Of a stretch of 64,000 bases of DNA, positions 2,219-7,511 are shown piece after piece. The notes beneath the pieces are model-generated. The model was not told the origin of the DNA. It did not search any database and saw only the letters and a program-made list of their open reading frames with translations. Source of the DNA: Candidatus Borrarchaeum weybense (GTDB lineage Archaea > Asgardarchaeota > Sifarchaeia > Borrarchaeales > Borrarchaeaceae); NCBI GenBank assembly GCA_019057385.1, contig JAHQJS010000004.1:916727-980726 (forward strand), given 5' to 3'. The first letter of the stretch is position 1; each line of letters opens with the position of its first letter. The position numbers and the translations under genes were made by a program.

Positions 2219-3034
2219 GTGCAGTATAGTTCAGCTGAATATATGTGCACAAATGAGGTGAATAAAATCTTGGATACACAGCTTGTGGACACTCATGCTC
2301 ATTTACAAAATGCTCGTTATAATAATGATCTTGAATCAGTAATTTTTAGAATACAACAAGCTAATATGAAGGTCATTGTTATTGGCTGGGATTTAGAGTC
2401 TAGTCAGAGAGCAATAGAACTAGCCTCTCAATATGAGTTTATTTATGCAACGGTGGGCCTCTCTCATTATAGTGCTAACGAGATGAATGATGATTTATTG
2501 AATAATCTTTCTCAATTGGCACAAAAAGAAGGAGTAGTAGCTATAGGTGAAACTGGACTCGATTATTATCGCATGGCAGCATCGATTACTTCTCAACAAC
2601 GTCTTTTTCGTGCACAAATTCAATTGGCATTATCATTATCATTGCCATTAGTTATTCATGATCGAGATGCCCATAAAGATATAGTAAATATCTTGAAGGA
2701 GGAAGAAGCCCACGAAGGAGTAATTCACTGTTTTAGTGGAGACGAAGATATGCTTAAGGATGTACTTGATATTGATTTTTATATCTCTCTATCTGGCATA
2801 ATCACCTTTTCCAAACCTCTTGCTCAACTTATAAAACAAATACCACTTGATCGGCTTCTTGTTGAGACAGATAGTCCTTATCTAGCACCAGTACCCAAGC
2901 GTGGCAAAAGAAATGAACCTAGTTATCTTAAGTATATTGTTCAAAAGATTTCAGAGATTTTAGACTTGACGTATGAAGAAGTTGTTCAAATAAATGAAAC
3001 GAACGCTAACAATCTATTCAAGCTTAAAGACTAA
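2219..3034 (+). CDS. tatD: TatD family hydrolase/DNase (true start probably slightly downstream)
   Basis: DTHAH, GETGLDY, IHDRDA, HCFSG, ETDSPYLAP motifs. Confidence 0.92.
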   Translation: MQYSSAEYMCTNEVNKILDTQLVDTHAHLQNARYNNDLESVIFRIQQANMKVIVIGWDLESSQRAIELASQYEFIYATVGLSHYSANEMNDDLLNNLSQLAQKEGVVAIGETGLDYYRMAASITSQQRLFRAQIQLALSLSLPLVIHDRDAHKDIVNILKEEEAHEGVIHCFSGDEDMLKDVLDIDFYISLSGIITFSKPLAQLIKQIPLDRLLVETDSPYLAPVPKRGKRNEPSYLKYIVQKISEILDLTYEEVVQINETNANNLFKLKD

Positions 3035-3076
3035 TACACTATTGTTTATGGTATAAAAGAAACCTATAGAAATTTT

Positions 3077-3799
3077 TTAGTCAACCAGGCGGAAATAAAC
3101 TCTACGATTATTTTTTCCTTTATTTTTTGCTTCGATGAATTCTATTTGACCAACTTCTTTTAGATTGCGTACATGTGTGCCGCCATCCGCTTGTTTATCG
3201 ATACCTTCGATTTCAACTATTCGCAACTTAGGAAGGTCTGGTGGAAAGGCACCCGCCATTCTTGAGACAGTTGGAATTTTAATTGCCTCATCATAGTCTA
3301 ATTCGTACCATTTCACTGCGATATCTTGTTCGAAAAGTGCATTAGCTTTCTCTATGTAAGTTAGAAAAACTTCCTTTGAGAATTCTTTAAGATTGAAATC
3401 GAATCTTGTTTTTTCTAGACTAATTTGGTTGCCTGTAATGAGTGTTCCAGTGTCTTCACAGAGAATTGCAGCTAACGTGTGTGCTGCTGTATGGCTTCTC
3501 ATGAATTTATAGCGTCTATCCCAATCGATTTGACATTTTATTTTATCCCCAGGTTGTAATCCTGGCTCACCTACTTCATGAGAAATTTCACCTGAGAATT
3601 TGCCTACATAAACTACTGGAAATACTTCTTCATCTCGAATCATTTTACCTGTGTCATGTGGTTGTCCACCGCCCTTTGGATAAAAGATTGTTTGGTCAAG
3701 AACAACATATTTATCTTCTTTGACACTTACAACGGTGGTCTCACATTCTTGAAGGTAACTGTCCTCTAAATATAATATTTGGGTCACGTTATTCACCAA
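3077..3799 (-). CDS. alaX: Free-standing alanyl-tRNA editing protein (AlaX-M type)
   Basis: LDQTIFYPKGGGQPHD, HTAAH, QADGGTHV, KGKNNRR motifs. Confidence 0.92.
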   Translation of the reverse strand: MVNNVTQILYLEDSYLQECETTVVSVKEDKYVVLDQTIFYPKGGGQPHDTGKMIRDEEVFPVVYVGKFSGEISHEVGEPGLQPGDKIKCQIDWDRRYKFMRSHTAAHTLAAILCEDTGTLITGNQISLEKTRFDFNLKEFSKEVFLTYIEKANALFEQDIAVKWYELDYDEAIKIPTVSRMAGAFPPDLPKLRIVEIEGIDKQADGGTHVRNLKEVGQIEFIEAKNKGKNNRRVYFRLVD

Positions 3800-4665
3800 T
3801 TTGGATTATCTATGTCACTTTATTTAACCTGCATGCAGTGTATTACTAAACTTTTGCGAGATCTTCTCTTGATCAACTGAATTTTATAATTTTGACATTA
3901 TAAATTAACTATTATTAACATGGTCAGCGATAATTAATATTTGATATTCTGGCACAACAGGTTCATTTATTCCAAGATATATAGTTTCAATTATATCAAA
4001 TCCATGTGATTTCAGAATTTTTCCCCATTCTTTTATCCTAAGAAAATTAAGAGGTACATTGATATCTTCGTCTCCAATGACTCGATTGTAAAACCAATCA
4101 AAAAAGCTATTAGTCACCCTTATATCATCTTCCTCAATATAGCCTTCTATAATTACTAAGCGTTTTTTGGTTATTCTTGTTGCTTCCTTCAATAGATGTT
4201 CGGGGTCACTCGCATGATGCAATACAGTATATAAAATGGTAGTACCTACTTCCTCATCTGCTAACGGAATCTTTTCCTCTGGATTATATAAGATCAATGG
4301 TAGGTCTGTATAATTATAATCTACAATATCAACCAGCACGACTTCTTTCTTAAGTTGTTTTTTTATTTCTAACGATAAAAGCCCATCTCCTGCACCAAGA
4401 TCAAGTATTTTCTCTCCTACGATGTAGTCTGCTACTAATTCAAAACTCCTTTTAGCGCGTTTGAATGCATAAGCCTTTCGATCTTTTTCCTTATCGACAT
4501 GTTTTCTGATAAATTTTCGCAGTGTTTCTTCAACTTTAATAAGAGGTATTCCTTTTTTCATGCCTTTAGTTATGGTTCTATTTACATAGAACCAAAAAAT
4601 ATGTCTTTTAAAAAAATTTAAATTGGCATTTTTCATGGTAGATAAAAATAATGACCGGATTTCAT

Positions 4666-5042
4666 TGGATTGCCTCAAGGAGACTCCCGCCCTAAAGAGT
4701 GGAGAGGAATTAAGGTCGGGTTTTGCTCACACAACCCTTTCTGCGAGCACAGGGGTTGGTGTACCCGACCTTGGGCGGTGTTTTAATGATGGGTACTCTC
4801 AAGTCCCATCCCTCCCAACACCAAGGGAGTCGGTCCACTTCGAGGTTGTTGTAAAGGCTTACCCGTCCGTAGCACCGTTCCTACCCCTCAGAACTTTTAA
4901 CCAGCGGACGACAGAGCAAGGGGCTAGTGGAGCACCCCAGGGTGTCATAACCTCAACAACTGCTGCATCTCTCTCGTAAGGAGAGACGCCCTCTAATCAA
5001 CTAATACCCTTCGGGTATACCCTTTAGGGTGGGGTAGTTGAC
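4666..5042 (+). mobile_element. 377-bp non-autonomous IS200/IS605 element of IscB type (omegaRNA only, no ORF)
   Basis: TTCAT target 4661-4665; left-end hairpin CCTCAAGGAGACTCCCGCCCTAAAGAGTGGAGAGGAATT; right end GGGTGGGGTAGTTGAC; GC-rich relative to flanks; clean in-frame empty site. Confidence 0.85.
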
Positions 5043-5062
5043 TCCAATAGTGCTTGTCTTTT
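4787..5062 (-). ncRNA. IscB-type omegaRNA (HEARO-like) with predicted 5' guide from the flank 5062-5043
   Basis: Minus strand begins GTCAACTACCCCACCCTAAAGGG...AGTTGATTAGAGGGC...GACACCCTGGGGTGCTCCACTAGCCCCTTGCTCTGTC...GTTCTGAGGGTAGGAACGGTG...AACAACCTCGAAG, matching the recalled HEARO/omegaRNA layout. Confidence 0.8.
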
Positions 5063-5133
5063 TTATTTTTCTTAGAAAATATTGGATATATGAGACGTTC
5101 CACAACAGTTATATCGTTTTGATTAGCAGGCTT

Positions 5134-5290
5134 GTAAACTACCTCACGCGAAAGCAGTGAGGCTTGTAGCTGTGCGTGATCTCAGCCCTCTAACTATACG
5201 AGCTAGAGTTTAAACGTTATCGCACGCTACCACATGGGCGTGTTTACCGCAGCCAGCCCAATAATCCGCATATAGCATCGGGCTGTATTT
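5134..5290 (-). mobile_element. Right-end remnant of a TnpB-type IS200/IS605 element carrying the omegaRNA (reRNA) scaffold
   Basis: Minus strand GGGCTGGCTGCGGTAAACACGCCCATGTGGTAGCGTGCGAT...CGCACAGCTACAAGCCTCACTGCTTTCGCGTGAGGTAGTTTAC; residual YADY..VVACDNV resembles a TnpB C-terminal tail. Confidence 0.7.
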
Positions 5291-5440
5291 CTTGCACAAC
5301 TTACACGAGACTATTACTATGGTCGTTACACTATTTATAGATGGAGAGACTTTGGTATAAGTAAAAGTAAACATCCTCAAGGATTGGGCTTCCCTGAGAG
5401 GGAACTGTGAAATTTTATTATTTCTTCTTGAACCATTTAT

Positions 5441-5498
5441 AACAACCTCAAAGAAGCTCCTGCCCTTAAGGTAGGGAGGCATTGAGGGAGGGTTTCAC
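5441..5498 (+). mobile_element. Miniature IS200/IS605 derivative (single hairpin)
   Basis: TTTAT|AACAACCTCAAAGAAGCTCCTGCCCTTAAGGTAGGGAG...GGTTTCAC. Confidence 0.6.
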
Positions 5499-5578
5499 TT
5501 TTACTAGGGTCTCTCCACCTTTAAATTCCTTTTTTCTATTAAATCAAAAATCGATGAATTAAAAGAAGGTGTGATAGG

Positions 5579-5806
5579 ATGGTTAAAAGAAATGAAAATA
5601 ACGATTGTGAACGTTGCCTCATATACCCTGTAAAAATTAATGCTATTTCTCGTGAAGAAAATATAGTTATTATTGAAGTTGATTCGCTAGAAGAACTGAC
5701 AATGATTGCAGAAGGATTTAAAAAGCCACTTCTTCATGATGAAACTCATCATCTCGTTATATTTGACAAAGAAATTCATTATAGAACTAAAAATGTTGAT
5801 TTGTGA
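5579..5806 (+). CDS. Small hypothetical protein (75 aa)
   Basis: RBS-like AAGGTGTGA upstream; typical composition; CERC near N-terminus. Confidence 0.6.
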   Translation: MVKRNENNDCERCLIYPVKINAISREENIVIIEVDSLEELTMIAEGFKKPLLHDETHHLVIFDKEIHYRTKNVDL

Positions 5807-5840
5807 AAGAAAGCCTATCAAGTTTTCAATGACATTTAAA

Positions 5841-5972
5841 TTATTCTTCTTTCTTGGATTCGCAGGCTTTTACTAGGCGAGCATATTCAGCGGCGTTTAA
5901 TTCTTTTCTCGCCATTTTAAGGCATTCTTTAATCATATCTTCTTTCTCATCTTCATGAGATTTTTTCGCCAT
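5841..5972 (-). CDS. Small hypothetical protein (43 aa, absent from ORF track)
   Basis: GAGGA RBS, ATG at 5972, MAKKSHEDEKEDMIKECLKMARKELNAAEYARLVKACESKKEE*. Confidence 0.5.
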   Translation of the reverse strand: MAKKSHEDEKEDMIKECLKMARKELNAAEYARLVKACESKKEE

Positions 5973-6120
5973 AACTAATCCTCAATTCATAAAAGATATT
6001 TTATTTCAAAAGATTTTCGCTTGAGGTGAATAGTAAAGGTCTTTAAATGATCAAAAATCGGTGAAAGATGAACTTATCCTATTAAATTTTGAAAAGAGAT
6101 TCCTTAATGACCAGGAATAG

Positions 6121-6516
6121 TCATTCCACATGATAGACCATACCCTGACATGATGCAATCAGTTTATCATTCTCTTGATTCTTAACATTAACTTGATAAA
6201 CTGCAATTCTTTTGCCAAAATGTATTTGTTTTGCTTCTGCTTCGAGCAAATCCCCTAGTTTGGAAGGTCTATGATAATTTATATTCATCTGGATTGCTAC
6301 TGCAGTTATTCCTTGAGAATTGGAAGCTAGTGCGAAGGCTTGGTCTGCTAAAGAAAAAATTGCACCTCCATGGGCAACTCCATGAAAATTCAAATGATTT
6401 TCAGCTATCTGCATTTGAATTTTTGCATATCCTTCCGCAAGTTGATTAATTTGAACATCTAAAAATTTTGAAAACGGATCAAAACGTTTTCTTAAATTGT
6501 CAATATGATCTGACAC
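6121..6516 (-). CDS. paaI: PaaI family hotdog-fold thioesterase
   Basis: HLNFHGVAHGGAIFSLADQAFALASNS signature. Confidence 0.9.
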   Translation of the reverse strand: MSDHIDNLRKRFDPFSKFLDVQINQLAEGYAKIQMQIAENHLNFHGVAHGGAIFSLADQAFALASNSQGITAVAIQMNINYHRPSKLGDLLEAEAKQIHFGKRIAVYQVNVKNQENDKLIASCQGMVYHVE

Positions 6517-6610
6517 AAAACCACCCTTTCAATCATATGAATTATTCATATCTTTGAAAACACATTTCTGGTTTCTTTAGGAAACATAAGAGGTTCTCTT
6601 ATATCTATAG

Positions 6611-6658
6611 GTGAGAACTACCCCCCAACAAGTTGGGGTGTCTTCTTGCGAAGAAATG
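6611..6658 (-). mobile_element. 48-bp PATE: left-end hairpin of the resident TnpB IS fused to a right-end terminus
   Basis: Minus strand TTTAT|CATTTCTTCGCAAGAAGACACCCCAACTTGTTGGGGGGTAGTTCTCAC versus CCGCAAGAAGACCCCCCAACTTGTTGGGGGG in the left end at ~52363-52394. Confidence 0.8.
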
Positions 6659-6744
6659 ATAAAACAATTAAAAGGGAAAAAGGAAGCCTGTTTAAAAAAA
6701 TCAGGCAACATTAATTTTTGAAATAATTCACGGCTTGTTATATA

Positions 6745-7269
6745 TTAATATCTTCGTCGTCGGTTATATCCGCCGCCGCCGCCGCCACCGCTGTAGCCAC
6801 CGCCACCACGGTTATATCCGCCGCCACTACGTGGTCGACCGCCGCCGCGTCTAAATCTAGGAGGTTGCTCAAAAAACCTATCTGAGAGGTTATTATCTGT
6901 ATTTGCTGTGATATCCTCTTCTGTCTCTTCAATAGAACCATATCTACCGATATTAAGCCGTAAACTGTTTTTGAACACATTACAGTAACCATTTGAAATC
7001 TTGAGTGCGCTATCAACGCTTACTCGGTCAATATCATCGTTCCAAAGTGTTAAGAAAATGACTCCTGTGTCGTCACCGACTAAAGCTTCAGTTACTCTAT
7101 TGACTGATCCATCTTTTCTACTTGTTACTTCTCGTGCTTCGTTCAATTCAACAACTTTTACTTTGACGTTGACCTTGCGACTTCGCGGGCCAAGGTCTGA
7201 AACAGACATCATAATTTCTTCTGATTCTTCTGTTTCTTCTCGTTCTTCATCCATGGACATTTTATTCAC
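6745..7269 (-). CDS. ssb: Single-OB-fold ssDNA-binding protein (crenarchaeal SSB/hSSB1 type) with Gly/Arg-rich tail
   Basis: VGDDTG.I.LTLWND, ISNGY..VFKNSLRLNIGRYGSI, NNLS; RGG/YGGG tail. Confidence 0.88.
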   Translation of the reverse strand: MNKMSMDEEREETEESEEIMMSVSDLGPRSRKVNVKVKVVELNEAREVTSRKDGSVNRVTEALVGDDTGVIFLTLWNDDIDRVSVDSALKISNGYCNVFKNSLRLNIGRYGSIEETEEDITANTDNNLSDRFFEQPPRFRRGGGRPRSGGGYNRGGGGYSGGGGGGGYNRRRRY

Positions 7270-7511
7270 CTAAACTATTAAAACTTACAAAAAAAGACAA
7301 ACTTACTTAAAACTCACCAACTAGTCCTGTAAATTCCTTTTTCTGTATTCTTTTCATGGCATCGAATTTTTTCTTTTGCAAAAAAAAGAGTTTCCGATGT
7401 ACATGGTTTTGTAAAATGGCAAGCCTGAGGCTTTTAAGTTTTTCTATTATGAACATAATCTATTTAGACATTTGAAGAATTGTTTTACTTCAATATTTTT
7501 GAACTCTTAAT

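What the first reader, a model, noticed from the sequence alone, without database searches (positions are those of the whole stretch)
4661..5062. Stand-alone IscB-type omegaRNA element inserted exactly at a guide|ATGAA junction inside a methyltransferase gene
Seen: 377-bp GC-rich element 4666-5042 with no nuclease ORF; its minus strand starts GTCAACTACCCC and has HEARO/omegaRNA-like stems. Excision gives ...CAC TAT TGG A|AT GAA ATC CGG (HYW-N-EIR), restoring the methyltransferase frame. Known: IscB guides lie 5' of the scaffold, derive from the flank, and targets carry 3' TAMs of ATGA/ATAAA type. Inference: guide AAAAGACAAGCACTATTGGA plus TAM ATGAA is exactly the uninterrupted allele, so this is a guide-only element needing IscB/IsrB and TnpA in trans. 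It predicts an Asgard IscB and its TAM.
Basis: partly seen in the sequence, partly recalled or inferred. Interest (0 to 1): 0.75.

Follow-up and report, generated by a model that had tools for sequence, protein, structure and literature searches.

The report
Protein-less IscB guide-RNA transposon in Asgard gene
A 377-base mobile element that carries only the guide-RNA gene of an IscB (Cas9-ancestor) transposon has recently landed inside a methyltransferase gene of an Asgard archaeon; this is a clear natural example of a kind of element that is already known.

Summary
Window 4666-5042 (minus strand) is a 377-bp element with 54% GC. Its first 214 nt match Rfam HEARO, the IscB omegaRNA, end to end at 99.8 bits (cut-off 83). 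It has no nuclease ORF.

A 99%-identical methyltransferase in a related Candidatus Borrarchaeum assembly, and metagenome contigs from two other samples, lack exactly these 377 bp. They read ...TGGA|ATGAA..., so the insertion is precise, recent and polymorphic. Orthologues carry the predicted KKDKHYW|NEIR segment.

The genome holds:
- 36 HEARO hits, of which 16 sit in front of IscB-type ORFs (RRXRR domain; the one scanned also has HNH) and 20 stand alone;
- one Y1 TnpA, in an IS605 whose right end nearly equals this element's right end.

The far end abuts ATGA in 17 of 26 copies with a placed end, GTGA in 3, ATAA in 5 and ATCA in 1.

Expression and cleavage are untested.

Stand-alone omegaRNAs, N|ATGA targets and protein-less IS605 derivatives are all published. 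I file this as a new member of a known kind, of moderate interest. Other first readers of this scan noted the same stretch.

The parts
4666..5042 (-). 377-bp protein-less ISC (IscB-transposon) derivative. On the minus strand the right end and omegaRNA 5' end lie at 5042 and the left end at 4666.
   Evidence: Absent from empty alleles in L041 and in contigs of runs X2 and X4. Five same-architecture copies in the genome align end to end with unrelated flanks.
4829..5042 (-). omegaRNA scaffold core (Rfam HEARO match, model positions 1-211 of 211).
   Evidence: 99.8 bits against a gathering score of 83, E 1.8e-20. It is 82% identical to the omegaRNA of the IscB-carrying element C3:53582.
4788..4815 (-). 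Remnant of the start region of iscB (element positions 228-255; encodes D-L-R-V-P-I in the full-length copies).
   Evidence: blastn gives 90% identity to positions ~260-288 of ten full-length elements. IscB reading frames there open with DLRVPIYV.
4666..4709 (-). Left-end subterminal hairpin (CTCTCCACTC / GGGCGGGAG) plus the terminal ...GAGGCAATCCA.
   Evidence: Conserved, with compensatory changes, across 12 stand-alone copies (pairs at columns 412-435). The same hairpin follows the IscB stop codon in full-length copies.
4661..4665 (-). Target/transposon-adjacent motif: ATGAA on the minus strand, TTCAT on the plus strand.
   Evidence: Of 26 copies with a placed left end, the flank reads ATGA in 17, GTGA in 3, ATAA in 5 and ATCA in 1.
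5043..5062 (-). Guide-encoding flank (AAAAGACAAGCACTATTGGA), immediately 5' of the scaffold. It is part of methyltransferase codons 34-40.
   Evidence: Its last 16 nt are unique in the genome within 1 mismatch.
5134..5406 (-). Second insertion: 273-bp protein-less derivative of a TnpB (IS605B-type) element. It keeps the left end and the omegaRNA-coding 3' end of tnpB plus the right end.
   Evidence: Absent from L041 and from an X4 contig. Its last ~165 nt are 82% identical to the 3' end of a TnpB element at C7:821405. No Rfam hit.
5407..5411 (-). TTCAC motif 5' of the TnpB-type element's left end (TTCAT in the empty alleles).
5114..5133 (-). Predicted guide of the TnpB-type omegaRNA (the flank 3' of its right end).
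   Evidence: Geometry only: TnpB guides lie 3' of the scaffold (Meers et al.). The empty allele reads TTCAT|AAACCTGC....
3905..4665 (-). Methyltransferase gene, 3' piece (from the second base of codon 41 to the stop).
   Evidence: 99% identical to P0001 over 243 aa; Pfam Methyltransf_11/23/25.
5043..5133 (-). Methyltransferase gene, middle piece (codons 11-40 plus 1 nt).
   Evidence: 95.6% identical to L041 3031-3121.
5407..5436 (-). Methyltransferase gene, first 10 codons (MVQEEIIKFH).

Best explanation
Window 4666-5042 is a non-autonomous IS200/IS605-superfamily element of the ISC (IscB) branch. It has lost iscB by internal deletion but keeps both transposon ends and the complete IscB-type omegaRNA gene.

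It inserted, without target duplication, immediately 5' of an ATGAA motif (3' of TTCAT on the transposase's top strand), at codon 40/41 of a class I SAM-methyltransferase gene. It lies in the gene's sense orientation.

Shown: its identity, its borders, the insertion polymorphism, its multicopy status, and the presence in the same genome of IscB genes and of one Y1 transposase whose IS605 has a near-identical right end.

Inferred, from the published mechanism of these elements:
1. Read-through transcription from the methyltransferase promoter yields an RNA whose 5' part (the last ~16-20 nt of the flank) is the guide and whose body is the scaffold.
2. An IscB made elsewhere in the genome loads it.
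3. If TnpA excises the element, or if an empty allele enters the cell, the complex cuts guide-match + ATGA. Repair from a filled copy then restores the element (restorative homing).
4. The filled site is immune, because GTCA replaces ATGA next to the guide match.

The element thus uses both the transposase and the nuclease of its full-length relatives.
For: Identity and borders
- Full-length HEARO match above the gathering score.
- The exact 377-bp gap in L041 and in contigs of two other metagenome samples fixes both borders to the nucleotide and shows there is no target duplication.

Independent mobility
- Five copies of the same 362-386-bp architecture sit at unrelated loci with sharp ends.
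- 20 of 36 HEARO hits lack IscB.
- Copies occur in all four other genomes searched in the genus.

Origin by deletion
- The element keeps 29 nt of the iscB start region and the same left-end hairpin as the 1.5-kb elements.

Target motif
- The left-end flank is ATGA, GTGA, ATAA or ATCA in 26 of 26 copies placed.
- This matches the N|ATGA targets and 5'-GT termini reported for ISC transposons (PMC4810608) and the NTGA TAM of IsrB (PMC9581776).

Trans factors
- The IscB examined has RRXRR and HNH domains with HNH and RuvC-III motifs present, and matches solved IscB chains at E 1e-38 to 1e-46.
- The only Y1 TnpA lies in an IS605 whose right end ...GGGTGGGGTAGTTCAC differs by one base from this element's ...GGGTGGGGTAGTTGAC.

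Guide
- The guide 16-mer has no other match in the genome within 1 mismatch.

Literature
- Stand-alone omegaRNAs work in trans with IscB (PMC10691335; PMC9581776).
- IscB scaffolds derive from the right end and need transcription from outside the element (bioRxiv 10.1101/2023.03.14.532601).
Against: - There is no expression evidence of any kind.
- This copy has the lowest HEARO score of its subfamily (99.8 bits; the other four stand-alone copies score 104.7-129.7 and the IscB-linked copy 116.8). It also has a shortened first internal hairpin, so it could be a poorer scaffold.
- The closest IscB-linked omegaRNA is only 82% identical. Cross-use by that IscB is plausible but untested.
- A single TnpA for about 57 nuclease-type elements and dozens of short derivatives may mean that mobility is now low.
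- In the sample that holds the window's sequence (X1) no empty allele was seen among the contigs, so ongoing excision is not shown.
Confidence: 0.8

Rival explanations
1. A mobile relic whose RNA no longer works. The element is a genuine protein-less ISC derivative that transposed here, but this copy is not transcribed, or not accepted by any resident IscB. It would then be just a gene-disrupting MITE-like insertion.
For: It has the lowest HEARO score in its subfamily and several non-canonical pairs flagged in the model alignment. The first internal hairpin is shortened relative to the four sister copies. It is only 82% identical to the nearest IscB-linked scaffold.
Against: The match spans the whole model above the gathering score. 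Stems in the stand-alone copies vary by compensatory changes: 17 of 56 predicted pairs have a change on both sides. The element lies in the sense orientation inside a gene, which is what guide biogenesis needs. The insertion is recent, since near-identical strains have the empty site, which leaves little time for decay.
Confidence: 0.15
2. In-situ decay. A full-length IscB element inserted here and later lost iscB by deletion at this locus, so the short form never moved on its own.
For: The element does contain a 29-nt remnant of the iscB start region.
Against: Four other loci in this genome, and further loci in four related genomes, carry the same short architecture with the same internal junction and a shared ~80-nt 3' module that is absent from full-length elements. 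The deletion therefore predates these insertions.
Confidence: 0.03
3. A domesticated trans-acting guide. The RNA directs IscB (as a nuclease or a binder) to another locus or to an invader, serving as regulator or defence rather than for transposon maintenance.
For: The biological role of stand-alone omegaRNAs is stated to be unknown (PMC10691335).
Against: The 16-nt guide has no second match in the genome within 1 mismatch, and the single 2-mismatch match is not followed by ATGA. The guide is simply the insertion flank, and the element disrupts a conserved gene.
Confidence: 0.02

Closest known systems
Stand-alone omegaRNAs of OMEGA systems (Altae-Tran et al. 2021, Science; read here only through PMC10691335, PMC9581776 and PMC11610941)
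   Same: An omegaRNA gene with transposon ends but no effector or transposase, in a genome that also holds effector-containing loci. It is evidently mobilised. Such RNAs are reported to work in trans with a compatible IscB.
   Different: The host is an Asgard archaeon (nearest named relative Candidatus Borrarchaeum). Here the empty allele is available, so guide, target and motif can be read directly from nature. Stand-alone copies outnumber IscB-linked ones 20 to 16. Function in trans is untested here.
ISC transposons (Kapitonov, Makarova and Koonin 2016, PMC4810608)
   Same: 5'-GT(CA) terminus, subterminal hairpins, no target duplication, insertion at N|ATGA (or GTGA-type sites), dependence on a Y1 transposase supplied in trans, and termini shared with TnpB-only IS605B elements encoded on the other strand.
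   Different: The ISC elements described there encode IscB. This one is a 377-bp derivative without it.
PATE-like minimal elements of the ISGst families in Geobacillus stearothermophilus (Meers et al., bioRxiv 10.1101/2023.03.14.532601)
   Same: A short IS200/IS605 derivative with family-type left and right ends and no protein gene, coexisting with TnpB/IscB elements and a single candidate TnpA. The TAM abuts the left end, and the IscB scaffold derives from the right end.
   Different: This element retains the entire omegaRNA rather than little more than the ends. The host is archaeal, and nothing here has been tested experimentally.
HEARO RNA, Rfam RF02033 (Weinberg et al. 2009)
   Same: Full-length match to the covariance model above the curated threshold.
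   Different: The RNA continues about 160 nt beyond the model, through an iscB remnant and a 3' module specific to the stand-alone copies, to the left-end hairpin.

Membership tests
IscB-type omegaRNA (HEARO, RF02033) | Match to the family covariance model at or above the gathering score | tested here: met
   99.8 bits against 83, model positions 1-211 of 211, E 1.8e-20.
IscB-type omegaRNA (HEARO, RF02033) | Scaffold begins at the transposon right-end boundary, with the guide encoded by the flank immediately 5' | tested here: met
   The empty-site alignment puts the insertion border at the first G of GTCAAC, which is also model position 1.
IscB-type omegaRNA (HEARO, RF02033) | Lies directly upstream of an iscB/isrB ORF | tested here: not met
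   There is no nuclease ORF in or next to the element. Sixteen other HEARO hits in the genome do meet this. The copy is therefore of the published 'stand-alone' subclass.
IscB-type omegaRNA (HEARO, RF02033) | Transcribed, bound by IscB, and directs TAM-dependent DNA cleavage | not testable with these tools
   Needs RNA data and biochemistry, which these tools do not provide.
IS200/IS605 superfamily non-autonomous element (ISC derivative / PATE-like) | Insertion without target-site duplication and without terminal inverted repeats | tested here: met
   Filled versus empty alleles differ by exactly 377 bp, with only a 1-nt ambiguity.
IS200/IS605 superfamily non-autonomous element (ISC derivative / PATE-like) | Insertion next to a conserved 4-5-nt motif at the left end | tested here: met
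   The left-end flank reads ATGA in 17, GTGA in 3, ATAA in 5 and ATCA in 1 of 26 copies; here it is ATGAA.
IS200/IS605 superfamily non-autonomous element (ISC derivative / PATE-like) | Subterminal imperfect hairpins at both ends | tested here: met
   Consensus fold of 12 copies: a 5' hairpin at columns 11-27 and a 3' hairpin at columns 412-435, both with compensatory changes.
IS200/IS605 superfamily non-autonomous element (ISC derivative / PATE-like) | Several copies with the same ends at unrelated loci | tested here: met
   Five copies of this subfamily and at least 15 short elements in all, plus copies in four related genomes.
IS200/IS605 superfamily non-autonomous element (ISC derivative / PATE-like) | A Y1 (HUH) transposase in the genome able to act on these ends | tested here: inconclusive
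   There is one Y1_Tnp gene (E 2.3e-38), in an IS605 with TnpB. Its right end differs by one base in the last 16 from this element's right end. Its left end was not clearly matched, and activity is untested.

The most novel reading that the evidence does not exclude
In this Asgard genus, guide-only elements may have become the main form of the OMEGA system: protein-less hyperparasites that borrow both TnpA and IscB/TnpB.

They also appear to favour ATG+A of start codons as their target motif. In 10 of 27 copies the element abuts a start codon, so it becomes the 5' leader of a host gene and is transcribed with it.

In the window, a TnpB-type scaffold, a 91-nt gene fragment and an IscB-type scaffold lie in series on one strand. 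A single read-through transcript could then yield two guides that police the two empty sites.
Probability: 0.25. Interest if true: 0.55.

Novelty: new member of a known kind. Interest (0 to 1): 0.35.

Why it matters
It gives a natural, nucleotide-exact trio of guide, target and adjacent motif for a compact (about 400 aa) archaeal IscB. It also gives direct population evidence (filled and empty alleles in different sediment samples) that protein-less omegaRNA elements still move in Asgard archaea.

That makes one question testable with defined substrates: whether stand-alone omegaRNAs are maintained by nucleases supplied in trans. It adds no new principle. Stand-alone omegaRNAs, N|ATGA targeting and PATE-like derivatives are already described.

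Tried and rejected
- RNA evidence: the look-up of sequencing runs listed no RNA holder for window 4400-5600, so expression could not be addressed.
- Rfam on the second element: scanning window 5110-5560 at E up to 10 gave only chance-level hits, with no HEARO or TnpB-RNA family. A single-sequence fold of it was not better than shuffles (z -1.7). Its identity came instead from homology to the 3' end of a TnpB element.
- My first reading of that element was a plus-strand IscB-like omegaRNA, because of its GTAAACTACC terminus. I rejected this once the same terminus was found at the 3' ends of TnpB genes on the opposite strand.
- Short (242-243 aa) methyltransferase 'orthologues' looked as if they might carry the same insertion. 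They are contig-end truncations with an intact TGGAATGAA or TGGAATCAA site.
- Altae-Tran et al. 2021 could not be read, so it is cited only through papers that summarise it.
- The left end of the TnpA-bearing IS605 could not be matched convincingly to this element's left end.
- One paper search failed on term length. One Pfam call failed on wrong coordinates and was repeated.

Full report
**Observation**

The stretch 4666-5042 has a GC content of 0.536, in a window of 0.373. On the minus strand it starts GTCAACTACCCC.

A scan of window 3000-7500 against all Rfam families gave a single hit. HEARO (RF02033) matches 4829-5042 on the minus strand, over model positions 1-211 of 211, at 99.8 bits (gathering score 83) and E 1.8e-20. 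It is also the only family above its gathering score in the whole 64-kb window.

No tRNA lies nearby. The only sizeable ORF overlapping the element (118 aa, plus strand) has no Pfam family.

**Is the methyltransferase really interrupted?**

The ORF downstream on the minus strand (3905-4636 from its first ATG) is a class I SAM-methyltransferase. Its relatives in public data are mostly 285-293 aa, about 50 residues longer at the N-terminus. They read ...FSKKNKKDKHYW-NEIRSLFLS..., with small variations.

The best hit is P0001: 99% identical, 293 aa, named as from Candidatus Borrarchaeum sp. It is encoded on a 24-kb contig of GCA_019058535.1, fetched as L041. L041 has the same neighbours as the window: TatD, AlaX-like, a 75-aa ORF, 4HBT, an OB-fold Ssb-like protein and TrmB.

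The alignment gives three blocks:

| L041 | Window | Identity |
|---|---|---|
| 2551-3029 | 5885-5408 | 99.6% |
| 3031-3121 | 5133-5043 | 95.6% |
| 3121-3287 | 4666-4500 | 98.8% |

The window therefore carries two insertions relative to L041. One is exactly 377 bp (4666-5042, with one ambiguous A). The other is 273 bp (5134-5406).

The empty site for the first reads ...CACAATTGGA|ATGAAATCC.... The window reads ...CACTATTGGA + element + ATGAAATCC.... Removing the element restores the frame.

Independent support comes from laying contigs of four metagenome runs on the stretch:
- One contig of X2 and two contigs of X4 (a different study) skip exactly 4666-5042.
- One X4 contig, with only one or two differences per segment, skips both insertions. 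Its junction is identical to that of L041.
- X1 holds 96% of the sampled words and may be the sample the window was assembled from. It shows the filled form.

The insertion is thus real, precise and polymorphic among close strains.

Two 'short' orthologues (242-243 aa) turned out to be contig-end truncations with an intact TGGAATGAA or TGGAATCAA site.

**The family in the genome**

The window lies in a 4.18-Mb, 8-contig genome. It contains 36 HEARO hits, 28 of them above the gathering score.

Sixteen ORFs with the Pfam RRXRR domain (the IscB/IsrB hallmark) each sit directly 3' of a HEARO hit. Most have open frames of about 401-404 aa. The one I examined has RRXRR plus HNH domains. It matches solved IscB chains (TbaIscB E 1.9e-46; OgeuIscB E 1.7e-38), with the HNH and RuvC-III motifs in place.

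The other 20 HEARO hits have no such ORF. At least 15 of them are bounded elements of 362-415 bp.

The window's copy belongs to a subfamily of five stand-alone copies. They align from the first G of GTCAAC to ...CCTTGAGGYAATCYW and have unrelated flanks on both sides.

Full-length elements (about 1516-1540 bp) end, after the IscB stop codon, in the same hairpin-plus-tail. The short element keeps 29 nt of the iscB start region. So it is an internal-deletion derivative that has itself multiplied.

Twelve stand-alone copies fold into a common structure with compensatory changes in 17 of 56 predicted pairs.

HEARO hits occur in all four other genomes sampled in the genus, and in 13 of 151 Asgard genomes sampled, this genome included. 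Copies of the 377-bp form are present in all four congeners.

**Target motif**

Projecting the left end for 26 copies, the next four bases are as follows:

| Motif | Copies |
|---|---|
| ATGA | 17 |
| GTGA | 3 |
| ATAA | 5 (mostly one subfamily) |
| ATCA | 1 |

At the filled site the guide match is followed by GTCA, the first bases of the scaffold. That differs from ATGA at two positions. This is the same self-avoidance logic described for Geobacillus elements.

**Trans factors**

The genome has one Y1 transposase gene (Pfam Y1_Tnp, E 2.3e-38). It lies just upstream of a TnpB gene, overlapping its start by 23 nt, in an IS605-type unit.

That unit's right end reads ...GGGTGGGGTAGTTCAC, against ...GGGTGGGGTAGTTGAC for the window's element. 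I could not match its left end with confidence.

There are also about 41 TnpB-type matches in the genome.

**The second insertion**

Window 5134-5406 has no Rfam match. Its terminus, GTAAACTACCTCAC on the plus strand, recurs about 30 times in the genome. In many cases it lies just beyond the 3' end of a TnpB gene on the opposite strand.

Read on the minus strand, its last ~165 nt are 82% identical to the end of a TnpB element at C7:821405. That region includes the codons for the C-terminal ...ARNIARRYMRI... motif, followed by the right end.

It is therefore the TnpB-side counterpart of the first element: a left end plus the omegaRNA-coding 3' part, without the protein.

It follows TTCAC on the minus strand; the empty alleles read TTCAT there. 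TTCAY is the reverse complement of RTGAA, the motif seen at the IscB-type element. This is consistent with one transposase serving both families, as Kapitonov et al. proposed for ISC and IS605B elements that share termini.

The two elements have their right ends facing each other across 91 nt of gene. On the minus strand the order is: TnpB-type scaffold, 91-nt fragment, IscB-type scaffold. The start of the fragment would be the TnpB guide and its end the IscB guide.

**Mechanism**

What is shown is anatomy, borders, polymorphism and the parts list.

The rest follows from published work on these families:
- IscB scaffolds derive from the right end.
- The guide is the outside flank, so it needs transcription entering from outside.
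- The TAM abuts the left end and is shared by transposase and nuclease.
- The nuclease cuts the excised donor joint so that recombination restores the element.

These points come from Meers et al..

Stand-alone omegaRNAs are reported to be mobilised and to work in trans with compatible effectors (PMC10691335; PMC9581776).

The sense orientation inside a gene fits the requirement for outside transcription. The guide 16-mer has no other target in this genome, which fits homing rather than regulation of another locus.

**Comparison with what is known**

All defining structural features of an ISC-derived, omegaRNA-bearing non-autonomous element are met. The only unmet feature of the HEARO family (an adjacent nuclease ORF) is what defines the already published 'stand-alone' subclass.

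Already in the literature:
- N|ATGA targets and 5'-GT termini (PMC4810608).
- NTGA TAMs for IsrB.
- PATE-like derivatives.
- IscB-HEARO systems in archaea, noted in surveys.

New here:
- The host lineage.
- The 20:16 excess of stand-alone over IscB-linked copies.
- The natural filled/empty pair.
- The double hit on one gene.

**Verdict**

This is a new member of a known kind, of moderate interest. Other first readers of this scan noted the same stretch, including the multiple hits on the gene and the back-to-back cassette. I reached both points independently before seeing those notes.

Noticed in passing
window 5134-5406 (minus strand is the element's top strand): A second, 273-bp protein-less element interrupts the same methyltransferase gene at codon 10/11. 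It derives from a TnpB element (left end plus tnpB 3' end/omegaRNA region plus right end). It follows TTCAC, and it is absent from L041 and from an X4 contig. No Rfam family matches it.
   Followed up: yes
window 5437-5530 (plus strand), just upstream of the methyltransferase start codon at 5436: A ~95-nt fragment resembling the left end of the short TnpB-type elements (compare C8:29170-29264) abuts the start codon (CCAT on plus, ATGG on minus). It is present in L041 too, so it is an older, partly deleted insertion that now forms the gene's upstream region.
   Followed up: partly
genome-wide; e.g. L006 (C4:319852), L013 (C6:872756), L004 (C7:348633), L005 (C4:1253092): In 9 of 26 HEARO-bearing elements, the ATG or GTG of the adjacent motif opens an ORF of 60 aa or more that looks like a true gene start. 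A tenth copy, C7:348633, abuts ATGC, the start of an AIR-synthase-like gene. The background for random RTGA sites is 16.5% (binomial p about 0.003 to 0.02, depending on the denominator). The elements often sit exactly between a gene's leader and its start codon, in the same orientation.
   Followed up: partly
L008 (G000:C7:413647-413670): A TnpB-type right end and an IscB-type right end face each other across only 22 nt. The same short spacer would therefore serve as the guide region for both RNAs on opposite strands. This is a tighter version of the 91-nt arrangement in the window.
   Followed up: no
element positions ~256-333 (window ~4710-4787, minus) and the same region of 11 other stand-alone copies: The stand-alone elements share a well conserved ~80-nt 3' module with its own hairpin. 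It gave no blastn match in the full-length IscB elements, and it is more conserved across subfamilies than the omegaRNA scaffold itself. Its origin and role are unknown.
   Followed up: partly
window 5043-5133 and 5407 versus L041 3030-3121: The 91-nt gene fragment between the two elements is 95.6% identical to L041, against 98.8-99.6% for the flanking segments. Both empty alleles (L041, X4) differ from the window at the last base of the TTCAC motif and at the third base of the predicted TnpB guide; both differences are synonymous. This could be plain strain divergence or target-site escape.
   Followed up: no
G000:C7:194191-196000 (L042): There is only one Y1 transposase gene in a genome with 16 IscB-type and about 41 TnpB-type matches and dozens of protein-less derivatives. 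The sequence ATAGACTTGG occurs both upstream of its putative left-end hairpin and directly after its right end.
   Followed up: partly
G000:C4:705319-705994: A stand-alone HEARO element (705743-705994) lies in tandem directly upstream of a full-length IscB element (705319-705554 onward), on the same strand.
   Followed up: no
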